From positions 64,001 to 128,000 of the forward strand of contig CAWJQC010000004.1 of the NCBI GenBank assembly GCA_963844965.1: 64,000 nucleotides of DNA. The letters are read 5' to 3'. Source of the DNA: an uncultured bacterium (lineage in GTDB: Bacteria > Patescibacteriota > Minisyncoccia > UBA6257 > 2-01-FULL-56-20). The notes beneath the pieces are model-generated. The model made no database searches. It worked only from the letters and a program-made list of their open reading frames with translations, and was not told the origin of the DNA. Of the stretch, positions 34,180-60,311 are shown piece by piece (the first letter of the stretch is position 1; every line of letters begins with the position of its first letter). The translations under genes were made by a program, and so were the position numbers.

Positions 34180-36625
34180 CTACTGCTCCATATGACCGAC
34201 AAGGGTGCATGTATAAAAGTTACCAGTGCATTGGGATGAATTAGTAACATCCCAACAAGTTGAATAAGTCTCCAGCGCGCCACTACAAGGAGTGGTATTA
34301 GCGCATGAACTGTTGTAGTAACGAATATAAGTCATATACTGCGGGCAGAAGTAAATCGGCGTCCCGCCTGTAACTTTAAGAGTGCCGGGAATGATGACGT
34401 TGCCGTTTGCTAGAACCTGTATAGCTGCTCCGGTTGTAGTAGCTGTACCAGTATTCGGCATACTGCCGCCAATACCGACGTTGCCGGCATAGTTGATGAC
34501 TAATTTATTTGATTCTGCCGCACTAGGATAATTTCCCACCATAAGCATGGCGCCCTGATTAACATCGCCCACATCGAGCAGCACCGCATCCGCATTGGTC
34601 GTAGCCGCGGTGCCGTAGAACGTGCCGGTATTGGTATCCCTGTTCTGCTCGAACTGGGTGCCGTAATCACCGGTGTTATACAAGAACGAATAGGTGGGAT
34701 TACTAAAATCGCTGTACATCTCAAGGCCGGGGCCGGTACCGGCAGTATTTGAATATGCATAAAATTGATAGTTGGCGGGCGCCGCCGCTCCCACCCCGAT
34801 TCCGGAGGTGAATAAACCTCCTCCAGTTACCGTCAGTTTCTGGGTCGGCGCCGTATTCCCGATGCCGACGTTGCCGGAGGAATTCCAAATACCGGTGCCA
34901 GGCATCGTAACGTTGCCAGTAAAGGTCGGGCTCGCTAAAAGCGCCGCTCCGGTAACCTGCGCTACCCCGTAGTCACCAGATGCCGCCACCACGGCTCCGG
35001 TTCCGCCAAATACCGAGGTGACGCCGCCGCTCGGCCAAGCCGTGATGCAATTCGCCCCGGAGATGCAATATTGAGTGGCGTTTGCGGTAACCGTTGACGT
35101 ACAGAGCGTACCCTCCGCCTGAGTTTGTGAAATACCCACCGTAGCCGCCGGAGTTGGTGGCTAATCCATAAACTCCTACGCCGTTACCTGCCGCTGACTG
35201 TCCGGCAACCCCTACCCAGTAAGAAGCGCCGACCTGTCCGCCGAGAATCCCATTCGTTGTGGCGTTGCTATTATTTCCCGTTACCGAGCCGACCCATGAT
35301 GAATTGACGGCGCTCGTGAAACTGCCTACGCCAGCAACAACCAACGGATATGCCGGCGTCGTCGTCCCGATGCCGACGTTGCCGTTCGTGATGGAGAAAT
35401 ATGGACCACCCCCCATCCCAGTGCCAAGCGCCAAATTGAGGCCATAAGATTGTGACGTCAAATCAGCGTATGTAAATGCTCCGTTGCTGGTGGTGAACTT
35501 TATCCAATCTACGTTTGACCCGTTTGTATTGTCTAGCCGTAAGGTAGACGTACTTCCACTCTGAATATCAAGTTTTGCGACCGGCGCCGTGTTCCCGATG
35601 CCGACGTTGCCGTTGTTATTTATAAACAAGGCGGGTGACGCGCCGGATGAGTCAGAACCCTGAGTCAAAAAGGCCATTGGAGAACCGTTACTGCCGATCC
35701 GGGCCCAGTTCGCAACTGCTGCCGGTCCAAGCTGTAGCAAGGCATCGGTACCGTTAGATGTCAAGTCAAACTTGGCGAATTTTGACCCGTTCACGACATG
35801 CAACGTCGTTGCCGGCGACGCCGTCCCGATGCCGACGTTGCCGCCATATGCAAGCGTCATTATTTGGGAGTACCAACTGCTGGGGTTCTGATACCCAATC
35901 GTCAAGACCGAATTATCTGACGCTGGTGCAAAAACATACCCATTATTACTGCCAGCCATATCGCGGAGCTTGAAGGCTCCAAAGACATCAAGTGTATTTT
36001 GTGGTGACGGCGTCCCGATGCCGACCGAGCCCGAGAAATACCCGCCGCCGTAGACGGAGAGGGCCTGCGGCAAGTTGCTGGCGGAGGATGTGGTAACGCC
36101 CAGAGCGGAAGAAACAAACACACTGTGGGGGAACCCGTAGGGAACGCCGGAATCGGCCTCTAGAGAATTGAACACCGCGGGCGTGACATAGCCGGCGTTG
36201 ACGGTCCCGTTAAAATTGCCGTGGATCGTGCCGTTCACGTCAAGCTGGTAGCCAGGCGACGCCGTCCCGATGCCGACAGAACCGTCATTGCGCACGACAA
36301 GTATGGGCGACGAATTCGGATAAAGGATCTTCAATGTGTAATTCGCGGCATCAGCGGACGAAGAAGCAACGATGAGGAGTTTGGTTTCCGGCAGAGGCGT
36401 GGGCGTACCAACGCCCAGATTCCCAGCCGCATTAGTGCTTACCGCTCCCGAACCGAAACCGGGGGTGGGAGGAGGAGAGGCAAACGCGTAGTAGGTAGTA
36501 GGTAGTAGGTAGTAGGTAGTAGCGAGAATGACGAAAAACAAAACGTGCGGCGCAAAACTCGGACGCACACCGTAAAACTTGCGGCGGAGCTTTTGCTGTT
36601 TTTGGAACAAATCTGCGTCCATCAT
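34180..36625 (-). CDS. Giant Sec-secreted fibre-like surface protein 1 (about 815 aa; frameshift near 35100-35160 joins ORF-track pieces 34973..36625 and 34180..35139)
   Basis: Signal peptide MMDADLFQKQQKLRRKFYG...VLFFVILATTYYLLPTTYYAFA; dozens of GNVGIGT(A/T)xP repeats; Cys-rich C-terminal domain; N-terminus and a ~150-aa internal block identical to the 40555..43680 paralog. Confidence 0.7.
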
Positions 36626-36859
36626 AATAATTTACTACCTACTACCTACTACCTACCGCTTTTAATTGTTTCGGGGCGACAATCTCATAGCTTTATTATA
36701 TAAGAACAGGGAAAGATATGTAGAAAGGGGTGTGCATAGGCGCGAAAACTGCCCGAGCGGCGGCCGCAAATTTCCCGGCCATCCGGGATATAAAAAAGGC
36801 TCTCGCGAGGAATTGCGAATTGCGAATCCTCACGAGAGCCAAACATACCGGAGGGGAAT

Positions 36860-37567
36860 CTAGTGGCCGACGATGGGTGGAAGACCGGCCTGGTAGCGGC
36901 GGTAATTCCCCATGTACCGGTCCGCCACCTGAATATTCCGCACGCCGTACCAAACGTGAACCGTGCTAAGGTAACCGGCAAAGCCGATGCTTGCGAGACG
37001 CTCGGCCCTCACCATTCTCCTGCCCCACTTATGTCCCCCCCATTTATGCTCTGTCCAGCGAGGGATAGCCGAAGAAAAGTAGGAAAAAACGACATCGAAC
37101 GCCGAGGCGCTCCCTAACACCCCAGCAATATTGCGATTGCCAAATTGGGTATATAGGGAGTCCGTCTCACGGGGGCCCTGCTGGCTAGCATAACGCAAAC
37201 CGTTGCTAGCGACGTACTCTGGAATAAAGGGTGGCGTAGAGAGGGAACGGAACGTGGTTATGTTGTCAAACGCAAATGGCCCGCGCTCAACACCCCACAT
37301 CCAAGCCTGTGTCCTCTCAAGCTTGCTCTGGTCCCGGTTTAACTTGCCGCCAGGCCAAGCCATAACCCTAAACACCTTATCAAAGGTTGATGGCTCAACC
37401 GGTGCCGCCGAACGCAAGGGCGAGATAGCGGGTGCGAGTGCCGGTGCAGACGCGGCGGATGCCGCCACGGGCGTTGACGCTAAGGGCAGTTCGGTAAGAC
37501 CGTCTGCCGGAAACGCGCGAACCGAAATGATTGTCAAGATTGTCAACAAAAGCACCAGTCGCTTCAT
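36860..37567 (-). CDS. Secreted hypothetical protein (start at MKRLVLLLTILTIISVRAFPA)
   Basis: Signal peptide plus Ala/Pro-rich linker; the ORF-track upstream extension overlaps a palindrome. Confidence 0.45.
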   Translation of the reverse strand: MKRLVLLLTILTIISVRAFPADGLTELPLASTPVAASAASAPALAPAISPLRSAAPVEPSTFDKVFRVMAWPGGKLNRDQSKLERTQAWMWGVERGPFAFDNITTFRSLSTPPFIPEYVASNGLRYASQQGPRETDSLYTQFGNRNIAGVLGSASAFDVVFSYFSSAIPRWTEHKWGGHKWGRRMVRAERLASIGFAGYLSTVHVWYGVRNIQVADRYMGNYRRYQAGLPPIVGH

Positions 37568-38045
37568 AACGACCTCCTCAAAAAGATTTAATTTAATTGC
37601 GCAAAGCAATTTGGCTACTCCCAAGAATAACCAAATCGCTTTGCGCAAGCAATATATTCATTTTTCAAGATACTTGCCTATCTATGCTAATTATAGCACA
37701 AATAAACAACCTGTCAACCCCCACCTTTTTCCGAAAAGGTGGGGGTCAAGTGGCCGCGGCGGCTGACCCGCTGAAGCGACGATACCCTACAACTCATAAA
37801 TCTCATCTCGCTTGCCTATTTTGAGTATATAAATTGCGCCATTTCTAACGTCAAATACCAACCTATAATCGCCCACGCGAAATCTGAACTCCCCGCCGCG
37901 GTTGTCAGCCAAACGCTTGGCAAACCTCAACGGATTATCCTCTGACGCATAAATGCGCATCTTCTTTGCTTTGCGATGCGCACTTGAACTTCTCTCGGCA
38001 GGGATTCCAACTGCTTAGCCGCCCGCTTGGCATAGAAAATCTTCG

Positions 38046-38222
38046 TTACAATCCCAACTTCTTAAACAGCTTATCCTGCGATATAGTTTTTTTTGCCTTG
38101 ATTTCTTTTCTCGCTTCGCGGACATCCAAAATATGCGCGAGGTAGCCAAGCAGGGCGCCGAAGCGAGCATCCGTTTTCCTCAAACGCTCGTATTCTTGTT
38201 TTGGTATAGTAACCGTGGTCAT
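38046..38222 (-). CDS. Antitoxin-like small protein (58 aa, MTTVTIPKQEYERLRKTDARFGALLGYLAHILDVREARKEIKAKK...), copy 1; its partner toxin is decayed
   Basis: Identical to the antitoxin at 40066..40242. The downstream RelE-like ORF in this copy has lost its ATG (CGT) and carries a 5-nt insertion. Confidence 0.5.
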   Translation of the reverse strand: MTTVTIPKQEYERLRKTDARFGALLGYLAHILDVREARKEIKAKKTISQDKLFKKLGL

Positions 38223-38345
38223 ATAAGTGCATTATAGTAAACCGGCGGCGGATATCAACCCCCACACCAAACGAGGACTTTCCGGGTCCCGCGCCGAAGG
38301 CGCATGTCCTCGTTAGGATTCTCGATAGGAATTGCCGGTGCGACA

Positions 38346-38564
38346 TTACAACAGAGAAACAAACTGCTCCGGTGCAAGTTCGGCATCACGTAGTATTTTG
38401 CGAAGCAGAGAAACATCCACTGCCTTATAGTTCGGCACCGTTACGGATTTCTTGCCGGGACAGGACAAACGAATATGGCTGCCGCGCTGGCGAACTTCGC
38501 GATAACCGAACTTTGCCAAAGCAGAAATAATCTTGCGGCCGGAGATAACAGGCAGTTTAGACAT
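38346..38564 (-). CDS. hicA: HicA-family toxin (mRNA interferase)
   Basis: 72 aa; REVRQRGSHIRLSCPGKKSVTVPNY, the HicA GSH motif. Confidence 0.65.
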   Translation of the reverse strand: MSKLPVISGRKIISALAKFGYREVRQRGSHIRLSCPGKKSVTVPNYKAVDVSLLRKILRDAELAPEQFVSLL

Positions 38565-38570
38565 GACGAG

Positions 38571-38840
38571 CTATACGGCAATTGTATGTAAGCTGATTTC
38601 CTGCGGCTTGTAATCCTGCAAAATTTGCCTGGACTGCTTTTCTTCCAAAATAAGCATTATAACCTCTCGGATATTGCGGAGCGCCTCGTCAATCGTCTTG
38701 CCCTGCGCATAACATCCTTCAAAAACAGGGCATTCAACAACATAAAACCCGCTCTCTCCTTTTTCGGCGAGGAGCGGCAATTGCCGGCCGCGGCCTATAA
38801 ATTTTGCTCTTGTTCTTGCCATAGTGAAATAATACCACAA
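38571..38840 (-). CDS. hicB: HicB-family antitoxin (UPF0150)
   Basis: GFYVVECPVFEGCYAQGKTIDEALRNIREVIMLILEE, HicB N-terminal RNase-H-like fold signature. Confidence 0.6.
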   Translation of the reverse strand: MWYYFTMARTRAKFIGRGRQLPLLAEKGESGFYVVECPVFEGCYAQGKTIDEALRNIREVIMLILEEKQSRQILQDYKPQEISLHTIAV

Positions 38841-39101
38841 CCCTTTAGGCGGTCAAGTGAAATTGGTAGCCAAAATCGCCCTGCCACACTAAAACCCCTT
38901 TAAATTCTTCCAGCAAGCAAACTGCCCGCGCTTTTCCGCGCGGGCTTTTTTTAAATCCCCGCTGAATACCCAGCCGAGACGTGGCGGAGACGAAACAGTG
39001 AGATATCTTTCTTTCCTCGCTTCGCAAGAAATCTTGCCGTTCCTCCGCGAGCCAATATCTACGGCCCCCGGCTGGAGGGATGAAATGAAATGGACGCTCA
39101 A

Positions 39102-39296
39102 CTATTTCTGTTTAATCTCTCTAATACCGAGGTCCCGGCAGATTTTCTTTGCCAAAAATTCATTGATTTCGCTATGGCGGGGCACCGTAGACGAACGTCT
39201 GACTTTGGGGTTAAAAAAGACGCTGTGCTTGGCGCCTTCCCGAACAAAAACACACCCCTCATGCTCAATGTGGCAAATTAAAACAACTCGCTTCAT
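39102..39296 (-). CDS. HicA-like toxin, second copy (divergent)
   Basis: 64 aa; ...STVPRHSEINEFLAKKICRDLGI resembles the HicA C-terminus; paired with the upstream HicB-like gene. Confidence 0.45.
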   Translation of the reverse strand: MKRVVLICHIEHEGCVFVREGAKHSVFFNPKVRRSSTVPRHSEINEFLAKKICRDLGIREIKQK

Positions 39297-39299
39297 TCA

Positions 39300-39545
39300 T
39301 CAAACTGTAAGCAGCTGCCGCGTCAACTTCTGTTTGCCGGCCTCGGCATCAGCCAGCGCCCGGTTGGTTTCCAAAATTAGCCGAAGCGCTTCTTTAAGAT
39401 TTTCTTTTACTTCCTTCACGCTTTTCCCTTGAGTATTTACCCCGGGCACTTCCTCTATCCAGCCGACATACCATTTACCGCTTTTTTTAAACACGGCTGT
39501 AAATTTGTATTTCATGACTGCCATACATTTAAGATAATCCCAAAG
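39300..39545 (-). CDS. HicB-like antitoxin, second copy (start MAVMKYKFTAVFKKSGKWYVGWIEEVPGVNTQGKSVKEVKENLKEALRLILE)
   Basis: UPF0150/HicB signature; trimmed from ORF 39300..39626. Confidence 0.55.
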   Translation of the reverse strand, partial: LWDYLKCMAVMKYKFTAVFKKSGKWYVGWIEEVPGVNTQGKSVKEVKENLKEALRLILETNRALADAEAGKQKLTRQLLTV

Positions 39546-39811
39546 CATGTAGCTGTCAACTCCTCTCAACTCCCGAGAAAACCCAGATGGCGAGCTTCTC
39601 CCTGCCTCGATAGGGTAGAAAAACAACTCAAACAGCCCAACGAAATTCGTTGGGCTGGATTTTTTTAACCAATGGCGTCACCCGCCGTTGAATTCCTTAA
39701 TATCTTTTGGCGAACACCGTTTAAACTACCTGTCAACCCCCACCTTTTTTCCGAAAAGGCGGGGGTCAAGCGGCCGCGGCGGCTGACCCGCTGAGCTGAA
39801 GCGACGATACC

Positions 39812-40066
39812 CTACAACTCATAAATCTCATCTCGCTTGCCTATTTTGAGTATATAAATTGCGCCATTTCTAACGTCAAATACCAACCTATAATCGCCCA
39901 CGCGAAATCTGAACTCCCCGCCGCGGTTATCAGCCAAACGCTTGGCAAACCTCAACGGATTATCCTCTGACGCATAAAAGCGCATCTTCTTCGCGATGCG
40001 CATTTGAACTTCTCTCGGCAGGGATTCCAACCGCTTAGCCGCCCGCTTGGCATAGAAAATCTTCAT
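39812..40066 (-). CDS. RelE/ParE-family toxin
   Basis: 84 aa; FYAKRAAKRLESLPREVQMRIAKKM...EFRFRVGDYRLVFDVRNGAIYILKIGKRDEIY, typical RelE/ParE. Confidence 0.7.
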   Translation of the reverse strand: MKIFYAKRAAKRLESLPREVQMRIAKKMRFYASEDNPLRFAKRLADNRGGEFRFRVGDYRLVFDVRNGAIYILKIGKRDEIYEL

Positions 40067-40242
40067 TACAATCCCAACTTCTTAAACAGCTTATCCTGCG
40101 ATATAGTTTTTTTTGCCTTGATTTCTTTTCTCGCTTCGCGGACATCCAAAATATGCGCGAGGTAGCCAAGCAGGGCGCCGAAGCGAGCATCCGTTTTCCT
40201 CAAACGCTCGTATTCTTGTTTTGGTATAGTAACCGTGGTCAT
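40066..40242 (-). CDS. Antitoxin partner of the RelE/ParE toxin (58 aa; stop overlaps the toxin ATG as TAATG)
   Basis: Not in the ORF track (under 60 aa). MTTVTIPKQEYERLRKTDARF...; translationally coupled to the toxin. Confidence 0.55.
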   Translation of the reverse strand: MTTVTIPKQEYERLRKTDARFGALLGYLAHILDVREARKEIKAKKTISQDKLFKKLGL

Positions 40243-40554
40243 ATTAAGTGCATTATAGCAAACCGGCGGCGGATGTCAACCCCCACACCAAACGAGGACG
40301 CGCGCCTTCGGCGCAGGACCCGGAAAGTCCTCGTTTGGTGTGGGGGTAAATTATGCCGAAAAAGCCGGAAGGAAAGATGCGATCTATGTTTCTCCCGCAA
40401 GAATACCCCCGCCGCAGGCGGGGGATGAATTGCGGTTCGAGAAACATAAACCCCGCCGATGGCGGGGTGAACTACCACCTAACATGCTGCATGTGCTAAG
40501 TATTTCGTGCGCAGCACGGCAGTTGAGATACCACCGCTGTGAGGCGGTGGTAGT

Positions 40555-43500
40555 TCATTTCAGAAGAGCGTCAACTTTTTCTTGGAGCGCGGCGTTCTGC
40601 GCCTGAAGAGCGCTGATCTCTTGTTGCTGCTCCTTGATGGATTCTATCATCGGCGCGATAAGCCCAGTATAATCCAGACCAAGGGTTCCGCTCGCGTCAG
40701 TTTCCACCAACTGCGGGAAAACCGTCTGTACATTCTGCGCGGTTAAACCGAGCTGCTCTCCACTGCCCATCAGTTTTGTATCTTTCCATTCAAAGGAAAC
40801 CGGCGTCAGTAACTCAAGCTCCGCAAGCGAACCCGACAGTGGAACTATATTCTTCTTCAAACGCTCGTCGGAGCTATTTATCCACTGCCCAGCATTGTTT
40901 GTATACTCGCCGTGGGCTCCCTGAAAGTCATACGTACTGCCGGAACCATAGACGCCGATTGCAGCAGTTGAAAACACCCCATACCCTGCGGGATTACCGA
41001 AGTATCCAGCGGAACCGTTCGCGCCCGCGGTATCCGAATATCCTTCCACCCCAACCCCAGTACCAGCGTTGTAGCCATAGACGGCGGGAAGACCATTACC
41101 AGTACCGTAGCCATAGACCCCATACCCAGTCGCACCAGCAGTGCCATAGACACCATACATAGAGCCGGTGCCATAAATCCCTGCCCCAGCTTGCCCGGCG
41201 CCACCGACGCTTAATGTTGACGCCGGTGCCGTCGTCCCGATGCCGACGTTGCCGTTCGTGATGGAGAAATATGGACCACCCCCCATCCCAGTGCCAAGCG
41301 CCAAATTGAGGCCATAAGATTGTGACGTCAAATCAGCGTATGTAAATGCTCCGTTGCTGGTGGTGAACTTTATCCAATCTACGTTTGACCCGTTTGTTTT
41401 GTCTAGCCGTAAGGTAGACGTACTTCCACTCTGAATATCAAGTTTTGCGACCGGCGCCGTGTTCCCGATGCCGACGTTGCCGTTCGTGATGGAGAAATAT
41501 GGACCACCCCCCATCCCAGTGCCAAGCGCCAAATTGAGGCCATAAGATTGTGACGTCAAATCAGCGTATGTAAATGCTCCGTTGCTGGTGGTGAACTTTA
41601 TCCAATCTACGTTTGACCCGTTTGTATTGTCTAGCCGTAAGGTAGACGTACTTCCACTCTGAATATCAAGTTTTGCGACCGGCGCCGTGTTCCCGATGCC
41701 GACGTTGCCGTTGTTATTTATAAACAAGGCGGGTGACGCGCCGGATGAGTCAGAACCCTGAGTCAAAAAGGCCATTGGAGAACCGTTACTGCCGATCCGG
41801 GCCCAGTTCGCAACTGCTGCCGGTCCAAGCTGTAGCAAGGCATCGGTACCGTTAGATGTCAAGTCAAACTTGGCGAATTTTGACCCGTTCACGACATGCA
41901 ACGTCGTTGCCGGCGACGCCGTCCCGATGCCGACGTTGCCGGAACCTAAAATTGTCACGAGATCCGTTTTCGAAGAAGCGCCCGTTTTTTCACTAAACTG
42001 GAAAGCGGTGGTGGGATTGTTATAAACATTATAAAAATCAACTTCTGCATTTCCTCCCGTATAATTCCAACCGACGGCCAGACCACCAAGGCCATCACTC
42101 ACCGGTAAAGATTGCGTGTTATATGAAGTTTTCAGGAACCCACCCTCAACATCGAGCTTGTAACCTGGTGCCGCCGTCCCGATGCCGACCGAGCCCGTGA
42201 AATATCCGCCGCCGTAGACGGAAAGCGCCTGCGGACCTACGGCACTGCCCGAAGTGGCAACCGCCAACGAAGAGGAAACGACGACGCTGGCCGGGAAAAG
42301 ATAATTGCCCGTGCTGACAACGTTTGAACCGAAATACCCGGCCGCCACGTTGCTGGCGTTCACGGTGCCACCCGAAGAAGCGCAGTCGGAACCGGTGCCA
42401 GAAACAACGCCCGCAGCGCTTACGTGCAAACACTGGATAGAACCGCTGATTCCAGAAACAGTAAGGGTGTTGGCACTTGCGCCACTGCTGAAAGTTTGAA
42501 GCGCGGTCCAGGTGTTCGCATGTCCAAGATTCAATGCGGCGGACACGGCGCCCGCGGTTGGAGATATCGTTAGAGTTCCGACGCCGCTGTCGCTGACCGA
42601 GGTTACGCTGCCGCCTGCCGCAGACCAAGAAAGCGTGCCAGCGCCGTTGTTCGTGAGCACAGTACTTGCACCGCCTTGCGCGGCCGGCCAGGAATAAGTG
42701 ATACTGTTGATTTTCGCGATGTTGCCGTTATTGTCAACCTGGAATTGACTGCTCGCGCCGACGCTAAAAAGCGACGCTGGCCCCGTCGTCCCGATGCCGA
42801 CGTTGCCGCCCGCAGTTATCCTCATTCTCTCAGCAGCTCCAGCTGAAGTGTCAACCCTAAATATAAGACCATTCGTCGCAGCGCTCGCCTTGACATCTAT
42901 AAACCCTCCCCCAGAAGAATCACTACTGAAAAGTCTCATGCCGTTAACACCGACGCTCGTATCACCTCCAAAGAATAGGTTGCCGTTGACGTTGCCTGCT
43001 GCCATAGGCAAAAGCATATTTGACGTAAGCTGAAGCTGTTGAGTTGGGTTCGCCGTCCCGATGCCGACGTTGCCGCTGAAATACCCGCCGCCGTAGACGG
43101 AGAGGGCCTGCGGCAGATTGCTCGCGGTTGTCGTTGTGATTCCAAGACCGGAAGTGATAAACACGCTGTGGGGAAACCCGTAGGGAACGCCGGAATCGAG
43201 TTGGAGAGAGTTAAACACCCCGGGCGAGATGTTGCCGGCGCTTACGAGACCGCTCACGCTGCCATAAATGGACATGCCGCTGGCGAGATTCACACTGCCG
43301 GCATTAGTAAGATTTGAAGTGCCGATACCGACGGTGCCATCGTTGCGCACGACGAGAAGCGGAACAGCAGAGCCGGGCTGGACAACCTGCAGAGCGAAAT
43401 TTGAGCTGTCGGTTGACGAAGCCACAATCAGAAGCCTCACGTTGGCGGAGGGTGTTGACGTTCCAATGCCCAGATTGCCCGCGGCGTTAACGCTTATCGC

Positions 43501-43680
43501 TCCCGAACCGTAACCGGGAGTGGGAGGAGGAGAAGCAAACGCATAGTAGGTAGTAGGTAGTAGGTAGTAGGTAGTAGCGAGAATGACGAAAAACAAAACG
43601 CGCGGCGCAAAACTCGGACACGCACCGTAAAACTTGCGGCGGAGCTTTTGCTGTTTTTGGAACAAACCTGCGTCCATCAT
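40555..43680 (-). CDS. Giant Sec-secreted fibre-like surface protein 2 (1041 aa) with peptidase-S74-type C-terminal intramolecular chaperone domain
   Basis: Same signal peptide as protein 1; GNVGIGT repeats; in-frame tandem 237-bp (79-aa) duplication at about 41237-41710; C-terminus NSSDERLKKNIVPLSG...GLDYTGLIAPMIESIKEQQQEISALQAQNAALQEKV, the S74 autoproteolysis motif SDxRLK plus a coiled coil. Confidence 0.75.
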   Translation of the reverse strand: MMDAGLFQKQQKLRRKFYGACPSFAPRVLFFVILATTYYLLPTTYYAFASPPPTPGYGSGAISVNAAGNLGIGTSTPSANVRLLIVASSTDSSNFALQVVQPGSAVPLLVVRNDGTVGIGTSNLTNAGSVNLASGMSIYGSVSGLVSAGNISPGVFNSLQLDSGVPYGFPHSVFITSGLGITTTTASNLPQALSVYGGGYFSGNVGIGTANPTQQLQLTSNMLLPMAAGNVNGNLFFGGDTSVGVNGMRLFSSDSSGGGFIDVKASAATNGLIFRVDTSAGAAERMRITAGGNVGIGTTGPASLFSVGASSQFQVDNNGNIAKINSITYSWPAAQGGASTVLTNNGAGTLSWSAAGGSVTSVSDSGVGTLTISPTAGAVSAALNLGHANTWTALQTFSSGASANTLTVSGISGSIQCLHVSAAGVVSGTGSDCASSGGTVNASNVAAGYFGSNVVSTGNYLFPASVVVSSSLAVATSGSAVGPQALSVYGGGYFTGSVGIGTAAPGYKLDVEGGFLKTSYNTQSLPVSDGLGGLAVGWNYTGGNAEVDFYNVYNNPTTAFQFSEKTGASSKTDLVTILGSGNVGIGTASPATTLHVVNGSKFAKFDLTSNGTDALLQLGPAAVANWARIGSNGSPMAFLTQGSDSSGASPALFINNNGNVGIGNTAPVAKLDIQSGSTSTLRLDNTNGSNVDWIKFTTSNGAFTYADLTSQSYGLNLALGTGMGGGPYFSITNGNVGIGNTAPVAKLDIQSGSTSTLRLDKTNGSNVDWIKFTTSNGAFTYADLTSQSYGLNLALGTGMGGGPYFSITNGNVGIGTTAPASTLSVGGAGQAGAGIYGTGSMYGVYGTAGATGYGVYGYGTGNGLPAVYGYNAGTGVGVEGYSDTAGANGSAGYFGNPAGYGVFSTAAIGVYGSGSTYDFQGAHGEYTNNAGQWINSSDERLKKNIVPLSGSLAELELLTPVSFEWKDTKLMGSGEQLGLTAQNVQTVFPQLVETDASGTLGLDYTGLIAPMIESIKEQQQEISALQAQNAALQEKVDALLK

Positions 43681-43735
43681 AATAATTTACTATCTACTAC
43701 TTACTACCTACCACCTACTACCTACTACCTACTAC

Positions 43736-44200
43736 TTACTGCTTCGCAGGCGGTCCCTGGATGGTGCCGCTTGCCACTTGCGAAGGAAGCTGCTGCGAAG
43801 GAAGTTGCTGTCCCGATGACTGAAGCGAAGAAGGGTTGGCGAATGCCTGCACAAGCTGACTGTCGTTGCGCAGGCTCGTCCAGAAAATCACCTGCTTGGC
43901 GTTCAAATGGACCTCGTCAACCGGGCCCCAGAAAGCGTTCTTGAGGGCGGAGAGTCCGAGCTGTGCCTGATTCTGCTGATTGACGCTCCTCTGCAGGAAC
44001 CAGACGTTTGTCAGACGCAGGGACGGGAACCAGCTCAGTTTGCCGAAATAGATATCACCGGTCGTAAGATAGACCGCCGAATACTCGGAAGGGCCAGCCG
44101 GATTTTTGGGAGACATGAGTTTCAAGCCGAGCCACAGGCCGAAAATCAGGACGACGAGCACAATGAGAACCAGGACAGCGATTAATTTTTTGGGCAACAT
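43736..44200 (-). CDS. Membrane-anchored hypothetical protein with Gln-rich C-terminus
   Basis: N-terminal TM LIAVLVLIVLVVLIFGLWLGL; SSGQQLPSQQLPSQ tail. Confidence 0.45.
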   Translation of the reverse strand: MLPKKLIAVLVLIVLVVLIFGLWLGLKLMSPKNPAGPSEYSAVYLTTGDIYFGKLSWFPSLRLTNVWFLQRSVNQQNQAQLGLSALKNAFWGPVDEVHLNAKQVIFWTSLRNDSQLVQAFANPSSLQSSGQQLPSQQLPSQVASGTIQGPPAKQ

Positions 44201-44319
44201 GAACTATGATACTAATATACAAATTGTACTAATGATACGAATGAATACAAATTCGTATCATTTGTATCATTAGCATGATTAGTATATTGGTATCGCAATT
44301 ACTTGTGTTTACGACTTTT

Positions 44320-44853
44320 TTATTGTTTTGGGGCGACAACGAGGTAACCGATGGGACCTTTTTCCGGACCGCCGCAGGAAGCGCAGTAAAAGGTAAACTT
44401 GCCTTCAAGATAGGCCTGGAACTGGAACGTTTTGCTTGTCCCCTTTGGGGCAGAGAGATTCAGACCGTAATCGGGCTGGGTAAGGTCATAATTTCCGTCA
44501 ACCGCGTTCACGGTCAGGTTTATGACATCAAACTTGCGGACGATGATGGTGTCCGGTGTAAAGGCGTTGGCTTCAATCTTTATGGAAAAGTCGCGGTTGC
44601 TCGCGCTTGAGACCTGGCTCGCGGGGCTCACGGTCTGCGGAATGGCAACACCCTGCGGGACATTCTGGGAGTTCTGGTTGGGCACGACGATGTTCTGAGG
44701 CGCCACTTCGCGGGTCGCGGTAGCGTTGGGCTTGGCGTTGCCGCCGGCCTGAATGGCCGAGGTTCCGGGCTGGCGTTCTACGAGAAGGAAGATGCCCACA
44801 AAGACCACGACCACGACAACCGCCACAATGGCAATTATTTTGTTTTTGCTCAT
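44320..44853 (-). CDS. Membrane-anchored cupredoxin-like domain protein (start MSKNKIIAIVAVVVVVV)
   Basis: TM anchor, Pro/Gln-rich linker, C-terminal ~90-aa beta domain (FTPDTIIVRKFDVINLTVNAVDG...KFTFYCASCGG) that reads as cupredoxin-like; tentative. Confidence 0.35.
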   Translation of the reverse strand: MSKNKIIAIVAVVVVVVFVGIFLLVERQPGTSAIQAGGNAKPNATATREVAPQNIVVPNQNSQNVPQGVAIPQTVSPASQVSSASNRDFSIKIEANAFTPDTIIVRKFDVINLTVNAVDGNYDLTQPDYGLNLSAPKGTSKTFQFQAYLEGKFTFYCASCGGPEKGPIGYLVVAPKQ

Positions 44854-44933
44854 AGCTTTATTATATAAGAACAGGGAAAGACATGTAAAAGGGGGGTGTG
44901 CATAAGTGCGGAAACCGCGGCGGGGGCTACTGC

Positions 44934-45797
44934 TTAGGTACAAGAAACGCTTGAAGTCGCAATCATGCCGCTGCCCGTAATATAAAGCCGATAGCAGGAA
45001 GCACCATTCTTCAGGATTATGCCGGACGCGCTATTGCTTATATATATATCTCCCCCGGCGACCTGAAGCGCCTGCGTCGGCTGCGAACCCATGTTCACGC
45101 CGGCGTAGCCGGTAAAATAAACATTATTTGAGCCGGGTAAGCCGAAATTGAGCACGCCGTTGACGTTACTCCAGTATTGCGTGGCAGTTCCAAGCGGCAG
45201 GCCGGTGGTTGACGATGGAAACACACCGGTATCAAAAGTCGCCGCATTCACGCGCGCAATCGCCGTCTGCAGTGCCTCCGAAAATTGCTGTGTCGCGTTC
45301 TGCGTATTGTTGGCCACAACGAATGAAACGCTCACGGAGTCGTGCCCCGGCGCGTTGGAACGCTTTATAAAAGTGAGGGAAGTAACGTTCACCCTCGGAG
45401 TTGTAAGCGGCTGCGGCGTGCCGGTAGCGGTCTGTTGCAAATATACCGTGCCAGGCGTACCGGAAGACAGATAAATGTAGGTCGGGTCCAACGAACTGGC
45501 TGCCATCCGCAACTTTAGGGTGCTCGTAGCGATATCCTGGTTTAACTCAACAAGACTTGAGCGTTCTATGTAATATTGGATCTGCTGCAACAGGAACTGG
45601 CTTTCTTGGTTCACCTCGGCGGCAGCCGACTGGCGGGATTGGATACGTATGACGGCGACCATCATCGTTATAAACGCAACCATGACTATTGCGAAGATCG
45701 CCGAAAAAGCAAGAAGTTCAATGATGGTGAAACCCTTCTTTGAACGGTAGGTGTAGTAAGTGGTAGGTGGTAAGTGGTAGGTGGTAAATTTCTTCAT
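44934..45797 (-). CDS. Type IV pilin-like / pseudopilin protein with extended heptamer-encoded leader
   Basis: KKGFTIIELLAFSAIFAIVMVAF is the class III signal (G-F-T-x-x-E) plus hydrophobic helix. It is preceded by TTYHLPPTTYYTYRS encoded by a (GGTAGTA)-type heptamer tract. Confidence 0.7.
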   Translation of the reverse strand: MKKFTTYHLPPTTYYTYRSKKGFTIIELLAFSAIFAIVMVAFITMMVAVIRIQSRQSAAAEVNQESQFLLQQIQYYIERSSLVELNQDIATSTLKLRMAASSLDPTYIYLSSGTPGTVYLQQTATGTPQPLTTPRVNVTSLTFIKRSNAPGHDSVSVSFVVANNTQNATQQFSEALQTAIARVNAATFDTGVFPSSTTGLPLGTATQYWSNVNGVLNFGLPGSNNVYFTGYAGVNMGSQPTQALQVAGGDIYISNSASGIILKNGASCYRLYITGSGMIATSSVSCT

Positions 45798-45806
45798 ATT
45801 AACTAA

Positions 45807-46187
45807 TTATAACACTTGGGCGCCTAATGCGCTTATTGCCTTATTTATCATCCACATGATTTCATCTAAATCTTCGGCCAATTTCCTGTATGTTTCGGGG
45901 TTCAAATATTTTAATTCATAGACAATCTCTAACTGAGTTTCCAGCTCTGCGCCGGAACTATATGCGTTTCTCAAAAATTGTAATTTTTCTTTTTTGGAAC
46001 TTCTCCGAAAACCCTCGGCAATATTAGACGGCATAGAAATCGCCGCTCGCCGCATTTGACTTGTTAGACCATATAGTTCCGACGGTGGAAATTTTTCGGT
46101 AACTCCGTATATCAGAACCGCATACGATTTTGTGCGTTTCCAAATGTTCAAATCTCTGTAAGATTTAATGGCTGAATTTTCCGCCAT
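45807..46187 (-). CDS. Four-helix-bundle protein (TIGR02436-like)
   Basis: 126 aa; ...YGLTSQMRRAAISMPSNIAEGFRRSSKKEKLQFLRNAYSSGAELETQLEI..., characteristic of that family. Confidence 0.6.
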   Translation of the reverse strand: MAENSAIKSYRDLNIWKRTKSYAVLIYGVTEKFPPSELYGLTSQMRRAAISMPSNIAEGFRRSSKKEKLQFLRNAYSSGAELETQLEIVYELKYLNPETYRKLAEDLDEIMWMINKAISALGAQVL

Positions 46188-46331
46188 GTCTAAATTCTAC
46201 TATATCATACTACCTACCACCTACTACATACTACTTACCGTGTCCGACCACCTCTCGCGTTTTCGGCGTTACCCAAAAGCGTCGCTCGCCTACGCTCGCT
46301 CCCTCACAACCTCTCGGTTTTGAGTAATTTC

Positions 46332-60014: not shown

Positions 60015-60085
60015 CGGCGGTCAAAAACGGAGTATCGTATAATGGTAGTGCCTGCCGGCAGGCAGGCACATGCATGGCCCAGCAC

Positions 60086-60154
60086 TAAAATTTTCGGGCT
60101 GTAGTATAGCGGCAGTACGCACCCTTGGGGTGGGTGTAGACCGGGTTCGACTCC
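60086..60154 (+). tRNA. tRNA-Pro (anticodon GGG)
   Basis: Acceptor GGGCTGT/GCAGCCC, anticodon arm CACCC-TTGGGGT-GGGTG, T-arm CCGGG-TTCGACT-CCCGG (one nucleotide short, possibly an indel), discriminator G. Its last two nucleotides overlap the start of a 159-bp inverted repeat. Confidence 0.7.
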
Positions 60155-60311
60155 CGGCAGCCCGACATAACGGAACTTGCATCAACTTTTTCAAAATCAA
60201 CGCGCTCGCTTCGCTCGCTGTCTTTATGCACGAGGGGCAAATGGAGAAGCAAATCCGTAACTACTTTCCATTCGTCTTTCCAATCCCAAAAAATTTCCCT
60301 GTCCCGCAGGC

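What the first reader, a model, noticed from the sequence alone, without database searches (positions are those of the whole stretch)
34180..43680. Two paralogous giant secreted fibre proteins with identical cassettes, one with a phage-tail-fibre S74 chaperone domain
Both genes start with the same Sec signal peptide and consist of dozens of GNVGIGT(A/T)xP / xKLxV-type beta-helical repeats. Gene 2 ends in NSSDERLKKNI...coiled coil, the self-cleaving intramolecular chaperone (peptidase S74) of phage tail spikes and endosialidases. Gene 1 instead ends in a Cys-rich lectin-like domain. About 500 bp (35330-35830 vs 41470-41960) and the first about 200 bp of each gene are identical at DNA level. Gene 2 contains a perfect in-frame 237-bp tandem duplication (about 41237-41473 and 41474-41710). 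This looks like a cassette-exchange, gene-conversion system for surface-fibre variation, plausibly used for host-cell attachment by an episymbiont.
Basis: partly seen in the sequence, partly recalled or inferred. Interest (0 to 1): 0.8.

Follow-up and report, generated by a model that had tools for sequence, protein, structure and literature searches.

The report
Two mosaic surface-fibre genes swapping modules
A tiny symbiotic-type bacterium (Patescibacteria/CPR) carries two related genes for long, phage-tail-fibre-like surface fibres. They have recently exchanged and duplicated a block of fibre modules by recombination at a short DNA word found at module boundaries. This is a new example of a known adhesin family, not a new kind of system.

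Summary
Two paralogous minus-strand genes (40555-43680, 1041 aa; 34180-36625, about 815 aa) encode fibre proteins with a signal-peptide-like leader.

- **Tips:** gene 2 ends in a Peptidase_S74 intramolecular chaperone (Pfam E=2e-14, S937-D-x-x-x-K942). Gene 1 ends in a small 6-Cys tip; "lectin-like" could not be tested.
- **Shared block:** 479 bp (two modules) are 100% identical between the genes, although their N-terminal domains are only 51-64% identical in DNA.
- **Corrections:** the tandem duplication is 228 bp (not 237) and not perfect. The leaders are about 93% identical, not identical. There are 9 and 8 GNVGIG-type motifs, not dozens. Gene 1 carries a frameshift that is probably an assembly error.
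- **Family:** the fibre body matches Bdellovibrio MAT (mosaic adhesive trimer) fibres (PDB 8OND, E=1e-10).
- **Context:** gene 2 sits in a five-gene operon (GT-like, pilin-like, cupredoxin-like, small membrane protein, fibre) conserved in Liptonbacteria-like genomes. Gene 1 is an extra copy.
- **Mechanism:** both rearrangements end in one 18-nt word, GGCAACGTCGGCATCGGG, which is conserved across genomes and phage contigs.
- **Not found:** silent cassettes, a reverse transcriptase, or an adjacent recombinase.

Verdict: recent gene conversion and unequal crossover in MAT-type adhesins. It is not shown to be a dedicated cassette system.

The parts
40555..43680 (-). Fibre gene 2: intact 1041-aa MAT-type fibre of the S74 subgroup. 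It is the positional orthologue of the single fibre gene in related genomes.
   Evidence: ORF. Pfam S74. PDB 8OND Bd2133 E=1.1e-10 and 8OML E=2.7e-4. PHROG tail-fibre families. Synteny with L009, L010 and L011.
34180..36625 (-). Fibre gene 2's paralogue, fibre gene 1: about 815-aa MAT-type fibre of the non-S74 subgroup. In the assembly it is split by a frameshift at about 35084-35098 into ORFs 34973-36625 and 34180-35139.
   Evidence: P0062 and P0002 read through the junction. Other essential genes in the window are also frameshifted.
43534..43680 (-). Gene 2 leader (aa 1-49): basic n-region, hydrophobic core, then AFA|SPPP. Taken as a Sec-type signal peptide by inspection. It contains a perfect (TACTACC)x5 array at 43544-43577.
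   Evidence: No signal-peptide predictor was available.
36479..36625 (-). Gene 1 leader (aa 1-49), 45/49 residues identical to the gene 2 leader. It contains a perfect (TACTACC)x5 array at 36488-36522.
43075..43533 (-). Conserved N-terminal domain of gene 2 (aa 50-202). The counterpart in gene 1 is 36032-36478. The two copies are only 51-77% identical in DNA.
   Evidence: Found directly after the leader in 41 of the 122 proteins held at that point (the 120 listed hits plus two window ORFs), whatever their length or C-terminus. The AF2 model is beta-rich but of low confidence.
41941..43074 (-). Variable middle of gene 2 (aa 203-580). It includes a module (aa about 300-444, ...NLGHANTWTALQTF...) shared at 45-76% identity with fibres of many phyla and with IMG/VR phage contigs.
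41463..41941 (-). The 479-bp block in gene 2 that is 100% identical to gene 1 35365-35843. It covers module X (aa 581-657) plus module Y1 (aa 658-733).
   Evidence: Ungapped comparison gives 0 mismatches, and both edges fall inside the 18-nt GNVGIG word.
35365..35843 (-). The matching 479-bp block in gene 1 (modules X and Y, aa 262-420).
41223..41712 (-). In-frame tandem duplication of module Y in gene 2. The period is 228 bp (76 aa) with 2.1 copies. Y1 is identical to Y of gene 1. Y2 has one substitution (Asn to Lys).
   Evidence: TRF result; blastn and base-by-base comparison. The 18-nt word at 41236, 41464 and 41692 is spaced exactly 228 nt apart.
40873..41253 (-). Gly/Tyr-rich distal stretch of gene 2 (aa 810-936, GxYG repeats). 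It is predicted to become the tip of the mature fibre once the chaperone is cut off.
   Evidence: Sequence. Analogy with Bd3182 in PMC10769870. Inference.
40558..40872 (-). Peptidase_S74 intramolecular chaperone of gene 2 (aa 937-1041), with catalytic S937 and K942 and a C-terminal heptad-like helix.
   Evidence: (6F45).
34183..34368 (-). Cys-rich C-terminal tip of gene 1 (GGTPIYFCP...CTLVGHMEQ, 6 Cys). It is almost an orphan domain.
   Evidence: The only relative among 1.84 billion representatives is P0124 (E=3.7e-5, 5 Cys aligned). No word-index homologue. No PDB match. AF2 failed.
43688..43743 (-). (GGTAGTA)n array, about 7.6 units, directly upstream of the gene 2 ATG. It is complementary to the in-CDS array at 43544-43577 and could form a stem of about 34 bp around the start codon.
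   Evidence: Fold dG -101 kcal/mol, z -8.9.
36633..36660 (-). (GGTAGTA)n array upstream of the gene 1 ATG. It is complementary to 36488-36522 and could form a stem of about 27 bp.
   Evidence: Fold dG -68 kcal/mol, z -4.9.
36684..36749 (-). Promoter-like region of gene 1 (TCTACA-18-TATAAT at 36724-36695). It is 90% identical to 44849-44915, the promoter-like region in front of the cupredoxin-like gene of the fibre operon.
37703..40299 (-). Toxin-antitoxin cluster between the two fibre genes. A RelE/ParE-like pair is present twice (37703-38278 and 39722-40299, 96% identical), and there are two HicA/HicB-like pairs (38346-38840, 39102-39626).
   Evidence: Family names for the small ORFs other than the UPF0150 hit come from reading the translations.
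36860..37648 (-). A 262-aa ORF of unknown function with a hydrophobic N-terminal segment, upstream of gene 1. No homologue was found in the related loci.
43736..48005 (-). Conserved operon partners upstream of gene 2: a 557-aa weak GT2-like protein (46332-48005), a pilin-like N_methyl protein (44934-45797), a cupredoxin-like protein (44320-44943) and a 154-aa membrane protein (43736-44200). A four-helix-bundle ORF (45807-46187) is inserted among them.
   Evidence: Pfam and NCBIfam. The same order occurs at 44-67% identity in L009, L010, L011 and L012.

Best explanation
The region encodes two paralogous surface fibres of the MAT (mosaic adhesive trimer) / 'tail fiber domain-containing protein' kind, in a Patescibacteria genome related to Candidatus Liptonbacteria.

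**Architecture.** Each protein has four parts:
- a cleavable leader;
- a conserved N-terminal domain of about 150 aa, presumably the cell-proximal anchor;
- a string of modules of about 76-89 aa, each opening with GNVGIG(T/N)xxP. By homology with Bd2133 these are units of an intertwined trimeric beta-helix;
- a variable tip.

**The two genes.** Fibre 2 is the last gene of a conserved operon (GT-like, pilin-like, cupredoxin-like, small membrane protein, fibre). It ends in an S74 intramolecular chaperone. That domain should drive trimer folding and then cut itself off at Ser937, exposing a Gly/Tyr-rich tip. Fibre 1 is a lineage-specific extra copy with its own copy of the operon promoter. It carries a different, disulphide-rich tip.

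**The rearrangements.** The paralogues are old, yet they have recently exchanged a two-module block of 479 bp that is now 100% identical. One module has also been duplicated in tandem in gene 2 (228 bp). Both events begin and end in the same 18-nt word, GGCAACGTCGGCATCGGG (extended to about 25 nt), which encodes GNVGIG at 10 of the 17 module boundaries in the two genes. The likely mechanism is ordinary homology-driven recombination between these boundary words: gene conversion, and unequal crossover or slippage.

**Consequences.** This changes fibre length and composition. The shared block lies in direct orientation in both genes, so it also offers a crossover site that could fuse the gene 2 body to the gene 1 tip.

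**Shown versus inferred.** Shown: gene structure, domain identities, identity pattern, breakpoint positions, conserved synteny. Inferred: trimerisation, self-cleavage, surface display, a role in attachment to a host cell, and that the 18-nt word is kept because it serves recombination.
For: **Gene models and domains**
- Gene models and motif spacing.
- S74 domain and SDxxxK motif.
- Sequence homology of modules aa 528-721 to the Bd2133 crystal structure 8OND (E=1.1e-10) and to 8OML. The MAT family definition, with its S74 and non-S74 subgroups, is in PMC10769870.
- Matches to PHROG tail-fibre families.
- More than 1000 homologues, many named 'tail fiber domain-containing protein' from Liptonbacteria, Pacebacteria and Patescibacteria.
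- The same N-terminal domain occurs in 41 of the 122 proteins held (120 listed hits plus two window ORFs). These range from 550 to 1805 aa, with or without S74.

**Context**
- The five-gene synteny is conserved in four related loci, each with one fibre gene after the small membrane-protein gene.
- No phage structural genes were found among the ORFs scanned; the neighbours are housekeeping genes.

**Mosaic identity pattern**
- Leader 96%, N-domain 51-64% with 25 of 38 identical residues encoded by different codons, then a 479-bp block at 100%.

**Breakpoints and the 18-nt word**
- Breakpoints and duplication ends lie in the 18-nt word.
- The word is used at 10 of 11 GNVGIG sites here, 6 of 10 in L009 and 7 of 10 in L010. 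Codon usage predicts 0.1-0.4% per site.
- It is used at 19 of 56 sites in loci that were not selected for it.
- It occurs in at least 120 phage contigs, with up to at least 19 copies in one 7-kb contig (L207).
- Near-identical intragenic repeats also occur in the fibre genes of L003, L004 and L009.
Against: - No read data are available, so an assembly artefact in the repeats cannot be formally excluded.
- Gene 1 is frameshifted in the assembly and could be a true pseudogene.
- Homology of the N-terminal domain to the Bdellovibrio MAT N-domain was not tested. The AF2 model reached only pLDDT 55, and the AFDB library was unavailable.
- Trimerisation, cleavage, surface location and host binding are all untested.
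- The closest homologue of gene 2 outside this genome is only 36% identical over 34% of the query.
- The conserved 18-nt word could be a by-product of repeated conversion or of translational constraints. It need not be an adaptation for recombination. Sites within one gene are not independent, which inflates the binomial P values.
Confidence: 0.72

Rival explanations
1. A dedicated, programmed variation system: cassettes are moved between an expression site and donor copies to vary the surface fibre, as in pilE/pilS or vlsE, or by a diversity-generating retroelement or shufflon.
For: - A sharp-edged, 100% identical block sits in otherwise diverged genes.
- A conserved DNA word lies at 10 of the 17 module boundaries and could act as a recombination signal.
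- There are perfect 7-nt repeat tracts in both leaders.
- Two large serine recombinases lie elsewhere in the window.
Against: - There are only two copies. Both are full-length with start codons and leaders. Gene 1 has its own promoter-like site, and gene 2 follows the operon's promoter-like site.
- No further fibre fragments occur anywhere in the 64 kb.
- No reverse transcriptase or template/variable repeat pair with adenine-specific changes was found.
- The recombinases are 8 kb or more away and are of the integrase type.
- No inverted repeats lie inside the coding modules.
Confidence: 0.1
2. Assembly artefact: the identical block, the tandem copy, or even the second gene arise from mis-joining or collapse of repeats or co-assembled strains.
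For: - The source is a single metagenome-assembled contig seen once.
- The window contains at least five frameshift errors.
- Repeats of 228-583 bp are hard to assemble from short reads.
Against: - The two genes differ far beyond strain level outside the block: 51-64% DNA identity in the N-domain, different tips and different flanks.
- 5.6 kb of unique toxin-antitoxin and other genes lie between the blocks.
- The homopolymer-type indels suggest a long-read assembly, which spans such repeats.
- The duplicated copies carry a distinguishing substitution.
- Relatives show similar intragenic repeats.
Confidence: 0.08
3. The genes are tail fibres of a prophage, tailocin or contractile injection system, not cellular adhesins.
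For: S74 chaperone, PHROG tail-fibre matches, and modules shared with IMG/VR phage contigs.
Against: - Both proteins have long hydrophobic leaders of the signal-peptide type.
- No capsid, tail, baseplate or sheath genes were found among the neighbouring ORFs scanned. The flanks are recG, EF-G/EF-Tu, tsaD and an aminoacyl-tRNA synthetase.
- The fibre gene keeps the same cellular operon partners in four other genomes.
Confidence: 0.05
4. Gene 1 is a decaying pseudogene, left over from a partial duplication. The identical block then reflects the last conversion from the functional gene 2 into a dead copy, with no functional meaning.
For: - The frameshift at 35084-35098 needs a 1-nt removal. It is not the 1-nt homopolymer deletion type seen in EF-G and the synthetase.
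- Relatives manage with one fibre gene.
Against: - Apart from that one site, both parts remain open for 550 and 319 codons.
- The Cys pattern of the tip is conserved in the remote homologue P0124.
- The module after the frameshift is about 90% identical to P0062.
- It has its own promoter-like site and an intact leader.
- The assembly demonstrably contains indel errors in essential genes.
Confidence: 0.15

Closest known systems
Bdellovibrio bacteriovorus MAT (mosaic adhesive trimer) fibre superfamily (Caulton et al. 2024, PMC10769870; structures 8OND Bd2133, 8OML)
   Same: - Signal peptide, then a conserved N-terminal domain, a long fibre of repeated units with GN(V/L)GIGT-type motifs, and a swappable C-terminal tip.
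- Two subgroups, S74-terminated and non-S74.
- Paralogues with similar N-termini and exchanged C-termini (Bd2133/Bd1334).
- Direct sequence homology of the fibre body (E=1e-10).
- Found in an organism that lives on other bacteria.
   Different: - The host is a Patescibacteria (CPR) genome rather than a Gram-negative predator.
- There are two copies in this window rather than 21 in a genome.
- Homology of the N-terminal domain to the Bdellovibrio one is untested.
- The gene is embedded in a conserved operon with a pilin-like and a cupredoxin-like protein.
- The Cys-rich tip has no counterpart among the solved MAT tips.
- Here the exchange is caught as a 100% identical DNA block with mapped breakpoints.
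Peptidase S74 / C-terminal intramolecular chaperone domain of phage K1F endosialidase and the phage T5 L-shaped tail fibre (Pfam PF13884; PDB 3GW6 and 4UW8 as cited in PMC10769870)
   Same: The Pfam match is above threshold. The Ser-Asp-x-x-x-Lys motif is present. The domain sits at the extreme C-terminus and is followed by a helical, heptad-like tail.
   Different: It is encoded in a cellular operon on a protein with a signal-peptide-type leader, not in a virion protein. Autoproteolysis was not tested.
T-even phage distal tail-fibre adhesins (gp37/gp38): recombination between short conserved motifs swaps or duplicates adhesin segments (Tetart et al. 1996 and 1998, J Mol Biol; recalled from my own knowledge, not re-read here)
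   Same: Short conserved sequence motifs that flank variable segments serve as crossover points. Small domains are duplicated, which changes the fibre.
   Different: Here the motif is an 18-nt word at module boundaries of a bacterial fibre. The exchange is between two chromosomal paralogues, not between co-infecting phages. No change in host range has been shown.
Antigenic variation by gene conversion from silent cassettes (Neisseria pilE/pilS, Borrelia vlsE; my own knowledge)
   Same: Non-reciprocal transfer of an internal segment between related surface-protein genes.
   Different: There are no promoterless silent cassettes and no known initiating element. There are only two complete genes. 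Nothing shows that the exchange is frequent or programmed.
Simple-sequence contingency loci (phase variation by slipped-strand mispairing in Haemophilus and Neisseria; my own knowledge)
   Same: Perfect tandem repeats of a unit that is not a multiple of three (7 nt x 5) lie in the 5' coding region of surface-protein genes.
   Different: - The tract is paired with a complementary array upstream and could form a long stem around the start codon.
- No copy-number variation has been observed.
- Similar arrays flank four-helix-bundle ORFs in an unrelated genome, which suggests a selfish-element origin.

Membership tests
MAT (mosaic adhesive trimer) fibre superfamily | N-terminal signal peptide | tested here: met
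   By inspection only. The n-region is basic (KQQKLRRK), the core is hydrophobic (VLFFVILATTYYLLPTTYY), and AFA|SPPP follows. Orthologues have classical short signal peptides. No predictor was run.
MAT (mosaic adhesive trimer) fibre superfamily | Conserved beta-rich domain of about 130 aa directly after the signal peptide | tested here: inconclusive
   A conserved domain of about 155 aa follows the leader in 41 of the 122 proteins held, and the AF2 model shows six strands. Confidence is low (pLDDT 55). Homology to the Bdellovibrio N-domain could not be tested: there is no solved structure, and afdb50 was unavailable.
MAT (mosaic adhesive trimer) fibre superfamily | Fibre body homologous to the trimeric beta-helix units of solved MAT proteins | tested here: met
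   phmmer: gene 2 aa 528-721 against 8OND (Bd2133), E=1.1e-10. 8OML scored E=2.7e-4. Shared motifs are ERMRI..GNVGIGT and GNVGIG.TAP.AKL.
MAT (mosaic adhesive trimer) fibre superfamily | C-terminus is either an S74 chaperone (SDxxxK) or an alternative independent tip domain | tested here: met
   Gene 2 has PF13884 with S937-DERL-K942. Gene 1 has a 6-Cys tip conserved in P0124.
MAT (mosaic adhesive trimer) fibre superfamily | Homotrimeric fibre displayed on the cell surface | not testable with these tools
   This needs multimer modelling, electron microscopy or immunolabelling.
Peptidase S74 intramolecular chaperone | Match to PF13884 above the gathering score, at the C-terminus | tested here: met
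   53.8 bits against a cutoff of 22, covering profile positions 1-57 of 58 at aa 937-992 of 1041. PDB 6F45 long tail fibre scored E=0.01. Several PHROG tail-fibre C-termini also match.
Peptidase S74 intramolecular chaperone | Catalytic Ser/Lys in an S-D-x-x-x-K motif | tested here: met
   The sequence reads WINS-S937-D-E-R-L-K942-KNI.
Peptidase S74 intramolecular chaperone | Autoproteolytic release after trimer folding | not testable with these tools
   This needs expression of the wild type and an S937A mutant.
Prophage / tailocin tail fibre | Linked genes for tail, baseplate or capsid | tested here: not met
   Pfam on the flanking ORFs shows recG, EF-Tu/EF-G, proteases, tsaD, an aminoacyl-tRNA synthetase, and pilin-like and cupredoxin-like proteins. 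The cellular synteny is conserved.
Silent-cassette gene-conversion system (pilE/pilS type) | Promoterless donor cassettes in addition to the expressed gene | tested here: not met
   tblastn and blastn of the fibres against the whole window find only the two complete genes. The rest of the genome was not available.
Diversity-generating retroelement target | Reverse transcriptase plus a template/variable repeat pair with adenine-specific differences | tested here: not met
   No RT was found among the ORFs scanned. The repeat differences are not adenine-specific. The four-helix-bundle ORF matches the Avd model only weakly, at 33 bits against a cutoff of 80.
Slipped-strand phase-variable (contingency) gene | Perfect tandem tract of a non-triplet unit within the 5' coding region | tested here: met
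   (TACTACC)x5 with 100% matches at 36488-36522 and 43544-43577.
Slipped-strand phase-variable (contingency) gene | Repeat-number variation between cells or strains that switches the frame | not testable with these tools
   There are no reads. A scan of metagenome contigs for the leader found no other copy of this population.

The most novel reading that the evidence does not exclude
The conserved operon (pilin-like, cupredoxin-like, small membrane protein, MAT fibre) is the host-recognition apparatus of this group of Patescibacteria. Its fibre would be built to be re-tooled in place. A DNA word kept identical at module boundaries, across genomes and in phages, would serve as a universal splice point for shuffling, duplicating and importing modules and tips. 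The 7-nt repeat tracts and start-codon hairpins in the leaders would add on/off switching of each fibre.
Probability: 0.2. Interest if true: 0.75.

Novelty: new member of a known kind. Interest (0 to 1): 0.45.

Why it matters
How ultrasmall Patescibacteria recognise and hold on to their host cells is largely unknown beyond type IV pili. MAT-type fibres are the prey-recognition adhesins of Bdellovibrio. Finding them in a conserved operon next to a pilin-like gene in a CPR lineage gives concrete candidates for host-specificity determinants.

This locus also captures module exchange and duplication at base-pair resolution, with both breakpoints in a conserved 18-nt word. That offers a simple, testable mechanism for how such fibres, and related phage tail fibres, diversify. 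None of it is a new principle: it extends a family described in 2024 and a recombination logic known from phage tail fibres.

Tried and rejected
**Structure and homology attempts that failed**
- Structure prediction of the gene 1 tip from a single sequence failed (pLDDT 32). 'Lectin-like' could therefore not be tested.
- Prediction of the N-terminal domain with a 24-sequence alignment gave pLDDT 55. The afdb50 fold library was not available, so no comparison with Bdellovibrio MAT N-domains was possible.
- The word-index homologue search with the tip found only the source protein itself.
- The full HMMER search found one credible relative.
- A search with the 62-aa leader returned nothing at all.

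**Searches for the source population**
- An exact look-up of the gene 2 product on assembled contigs found no record.
- The source genome is not among the GTDB representatives.
- A metagenome scan for the 28-nt leader word found no other copy of this population. Population-level variation in repeat number or module number could therefore not be examined.

**Uninformative scans**
- A metagenome scan for (GGTAGTA)4 hit 120 mostly unrelated contigs and was not specific. Only 4 had both orientations close together.
- Rfam found no known RNA at the leader hairpins. There was only a chance sub-threshold let-7 match.

**Readings considered and rejected**
- Prophage origin: no phage genes found, and conserved cellular synteny.
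- Diversity-generating retroelement: no RT found, and no adenine-specific differences.
- Silent-cassette array: no extra copies in the window.
- Co-assembled strain variants: the divergence is far too high outside the block.

Full report
**1. What is in the sequence**

Both genes lie on the minus strand. Gene 2 (40555-43680) is an intact ORF of 1041 aa.

Gene 1 occupies 34180-36625 but is split into ORFs of 550 aa (34973-36625) and 319 aa (34180-35139). They overlap in different frames, and the shift lies at about 35084-35098.

Two homologues, P0062 and P0002, read straight through the equivalent point...LEVVGNVSSSALCLGGTCN(S/T)TWPSGGVTSVF.... The downstream ORF continues the fibre with more modules.

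The same 64-kb window has other frame breaks. EF-Tu has two, at 16619-16693. EF-G has one, in a G run at 19525-19541. A class I aminoacyl-tRNA synthetase has one, in an A run at 55981-55997.

Essential genes broken at homopolymers point to an indel-prone (probably long-read) assembly. I therefore treat the gene 1 frameshift as a probable artefact and gene 1 as a protein of about 815 aa. A true pseudogene is not excluded.

**2.

A self-comparison and a base-by-base check give the following.

- 35365-35843 equals 41463-41941 with no mismatch over 479 bp. Identity collapses to random on both sides.
- The tandem duplication in gene 2 has a period of 228 bp (76 codons), not 237. It spans 41223-41712.
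- The upstream copy is identical to the single copy in gene 1. The downstream copy has one internal change (Asn to Lys) plus three changes in the junction motif.
- The 5' ends are similar but not identical: 254 bp at 92.5%, with 13 mismatches in the first 200 coding bases.
- The GxVGIG(T/N) motif occurs 9 times in gene 2 and 8 times in gene 1, mostly 76-89 aa apart. It marks module boundaries and is not a coil repeat.

**3. What the proteins are**

Gene 2 ends in Peptidase_S74: PF13884, 53.8 bits, E=2.3e-14, aa 937-992. It has the catalytic pattern S937-D-E-R-L-K942 and a heptad-like C-terminal helix.

Against solved structures, gene 2 aa 528-721 match Bdellovibrio Bd2133 (8OND, E=1.1e-10). 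A second Bdellovibrio fibre matches as well (8OML), and the C-terminus matches a phage long tail fibre (6F45).

Those Bdellovibrio proteins define the MAT (mosaic adhesive trimer) superfamily. Its features are:
- a signal peptide;
- a conserved N-terminal domain;
- an intertwined trimeric beta-helix fibre;
- either an S74 chaperone or another tip domain;
- surface display and prey-glycan binding;
- paralogues with similar N-termini and exchanged tips (PMC10769870).

The present pair fits this description, with one S74 member and one non-S74 member.

More than 1000 homologues exist. The best is only 36% identical over 34% of the query, and many are named 'tail fiber domain-containing protein' from Liptonbacteria, Pacebacteria and other Patescibacteria. 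Of the 122 proteins held at that point (the 120 listed hits plus two window ORFs), 41 carry the same domain of about 155 aa right after the leader. Their total length ranges from 550 to 1805 aa, with or without S74.

PHROG tail-fibre families match both genes. A central module (aa about 300-444) is shared with phage contigs and with fibres from distant phyla.

The tip of gene 1 (last 60 aa or so, 6 Cys) is nearly an orphan. Among 1.84 billion representatives, only one credible relative was found: a 171-aa protein with a signal-peptide-like N-terminus and five aligned cysteines. No fold could be assigned, so 'lectin-like' remains untested.

**4. Context**

Contigs encoding three homologues show the same gene order. 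These are L009 (Candidatus Liptonbacteria, GCA_016204335.1), L010, and L011 with L012. The order is:
- a protein of about 550 aa (weak GT2 match);
- a pilin-like protein with an N-terminal methylation motif;
- a cupredoxin-like protein;
- a membrane protein of about 150 aa;
- the fibre.

In L009 and L010, recG lies beyond, on the opposite strand. The accessory proteins are 44-67% identical to those of the window. The first 210 residues of the fibre, which include the N-domain, are only about 40-44% identical.

Gene 2 occupies the orthologous position, and relatives have one fibre gene there. Gene 1 is an additional copy. It is separated from gene 2 by a cluster of toxin-antitoxin pairs, one of them duplicated at 96%, and by a 262-aa ORF.

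Gene 1 has its own promoter-like site at 36724-36695. It sits inside a 67-bp stretch that is 90% identical to the promoter-like region in front of the cupredoxin-like gene.

No phage structural genes, no reverse transcriptase and no further fibre fragments were detected in the window. Not every ORF was scanned against Pfam. Two large serine recombinases lie 8 kb or more away.

**5. How the shared block arose**

Codon-by-codon comparison of the alignable N-terminal parts shows three zones:
- 96% DNA identity over codons 1-60 (the leader);
- 51-64% over codons 61-150, where 25 of 38 identical residues use different codons;
- 76-77% over codons 152-211.

After that the genes cannot be aligned until the block at 100% identity. 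Old paralogues with a perfectly identical internal segment are the signature of recent non-reciprocal transfer (gene conversion).

The block starts and ends inside the DNA word GGCAACGTCGGCATCGGG, which encodes GNVGIG. The three copies of this word at 41236, 41464 and 41692 are exactly 228 nt apart and delimit the tandem duplication.

The word is over-represented.
- It is used at 10 of 11 GNVGIG sites in the two genes, 6 of 10 in L009 and 7 of 10 in L010.
- Gene-wide codon usage predicts 0.1-0.4% per site. The third glycine uses GGG, a minority Gly codon in these genes and the rarest in L009.
- In loci fetched without reference to the motif, it accounts for 19 of 56 sites.
- At least 120 IMG/VR contigs carry it, one of them at least 19 times in 7 kb.

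Sites within a gene are not independent, so the P values overstate the case. Still, the same word recurs across genomes whose fibres are otherwise saturated at synonymous sites.

I infer that module boundaries carry about 18-25 nt of identical DNA. These stretches act as crossover or slippage points and explain both events here. Near-identical intragenic repeats also occur in the fibre genes of L003, L004 and L009.

It is not established whether the word is maintained for this purpose or as a by-product of repeated conversion or translational constraints.

Because the shared block is in direct orientation in both genes, a single crossover would delete the 5.6 kb between the two copies. That would fuse the body of gene 2 to the tip of gene 1. 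This is a prediction, not an observation.

**6. The leaders**

Both genes have a perfect (TACTACC)x5 tract inside the leader-peptide coding region, giving the peptide TTYYLLPTTYY. A complementary (GGTAGTA)n array lies just upstream of the ATG.

As RNA, these could form stems of about 34 and 27 bp that enclose the ribosome-binding region, the start codon and about 35 codons. The fold energies are dG -101 kcal/mol (z = -8.9) and dG -68 kcal/mol (z = -4.9).

A third pair in the window encloses a four-helix-bundle (23S rRNA IVS-protein-like) ORF. Its 3' arm lies in the leader peptide of the pilin-like gene.

In an unrelated metagenome contig (L033), the same arrays flank four-helix-bundle ORFs. 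The orthologous loci L009 and L011 lack them, and L010 has unrelated inverted repeats near the same gene starts.

A 7-nt unit changes the reading frame when one unit is gained or lost, so the tracts are candidates for on/off switching. Alternatively, they are remnants of a small selfish element, or RNase III-type stems. Nothing here distinguishes these readings, and no known RNA family matches.

**7. Verdict**

The S74 call and the gene-conversion inference stand. The 'cassette-exchange system' is an over-reading.

The pair is a new member of the MAT / tail-fibre-like adhesin kind, in a Patescibacteria lineage. The searched literature held no paper linking MAT fibres to Patescibacteria.

A role in attachment to a host cell is plausible by analogy but untested. 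The points of added interest are the conserved operon with a pilin-like gene, the base-pair-resolved module exchange at a conserved DNA word, and the repeat-bearing leaders.

Noticed in passing
window 36488-36522 / 36633-36660; 43544-43577 / 43688-43743; 46208-46238 paired with about 45745-45790: Inverted arrays of the heptamer GGTAGTA/TACTACC bracket the start of both fibre genes. A third pair brackets a whole four-helix-bundle ORF, with its 3' arm in the leader peptide of the pilin-like gene. In each case the coding-side arm lies in a leader (or presumed leader) peptide. The predicted RNA stems are 27-34 bp (z -4.9 and -8.9). The tracts are candidates for slipped-strand phase variation, for RNase III stems, or for ends of a small selfish element.
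   Followed up: partly
L033 2357-3216 (metagenome contig Ga0209986_10013986): In an unrelated genome, the same GGTAGTA arrays flank a 120-aa four-helix-bundle ORF and a partial second copy. This suggests the arrays travel with this gene family.
   Followed up: partly
window, all GNVGIG sites (34858, 35366, 35594, 35825, 41236, 41464, 41692, 41923, 42790, 43057); L009, L010, L004, L001; L142-L261: The 18-nt word GGCAACGTCGGCATCGGG, including a minority GGG glycine codon, encodes GNVGIG far more often than codon usage predicts. This holds across different CPR genomes and in at least 120 IMG/VR phage contigs; L207 has at least 19 copies in 7 kb.
   Followed up: partly
window 43736-48005; L009 5538-14125; L010 4204-13696; L011 6217-12784: A conserved five-gene operon (GT2-like protein of about 550 aa, pilin-like N_methyl protein, cupredoxin-like protein, membrane protein of about 150 aa, MAT fibre) occurs in Liptonbacteria-like genomes, and sits next to recG in the window, L009 and L010. 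It suggests a dedicated export, anchoring or display apparatus for the fibre.
   Followed up: partly
window 31232-33913 (+): RecG carries an in-frame PD-(D/E)XK_3 (GxxExxY-type) domain inserted at aa 447-558 between the helicase lobes, flanked by low-complexity linkers. The L010 RecG has the same insertion. The L009 RecG lacks it, but L009 has a free-standing PDDEXK_3 gene inside the fibre operon.
   Followed up: partly
window 54307-57104 (+): A class I aminoacyl-tRNA synthetase has a histidine-phosphatase (His_Phos_1) domain inserted in its catalytic domain. The gene is split by a frameshift in an A5 run at 55981-55997, inside that insertion.
   Followed up: partly
window 16619-16693, 19525-19541: EF-Tu (two shifts) and EF-G (one shift, in a G run) are frameshifted. 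This indicates an indel-prone assembly, so every apparent pseudogene in this window should be read with caution.
   Followed up: yes
window 37703-38278 and 39722-40299; 38346-38840; 39102-39626: Four toxin-antitoxin pairs lie between the fibre genes. A RelE/ParE-like pair is duplicated at 96%, and the toxin ORF in one copy is shortened (57 vs 84 aa). Two HicA/HicB-like pairs are also present. Part of the duplicated segment also occurs in inverted orientation (38258-38317 vs 40347-40288).
   Followed up: no
window 24492-25886 (-) and 60085-61686 (-): Two large serine recombinases (Resolvase + Recombinase + Zn ribbon) are present. No link to the fibre locus was found.
   Followed up: no
window 36684-36749 vs 44849-44915: A 67-bp stretch with a promoter-like site is duplicated (90% identity) in front of gene 1 and in front of the cupredoxin-like gene. 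Both fibres may therefore be driven by the same type of promoter.
   Followed up: partly
L010 13851-14996: A block of tandem or dispersed repeats of about 145 bp (91-98% identical) lies immediately downstream of the fibre gene in a related genome. It was not analysed.
   Followed up: no
L011 12880-13707 (-): A second, short (275-aa) ORF with a weak S74 match lies convergent to the fibre gene in a related genome.
   Followed up: no
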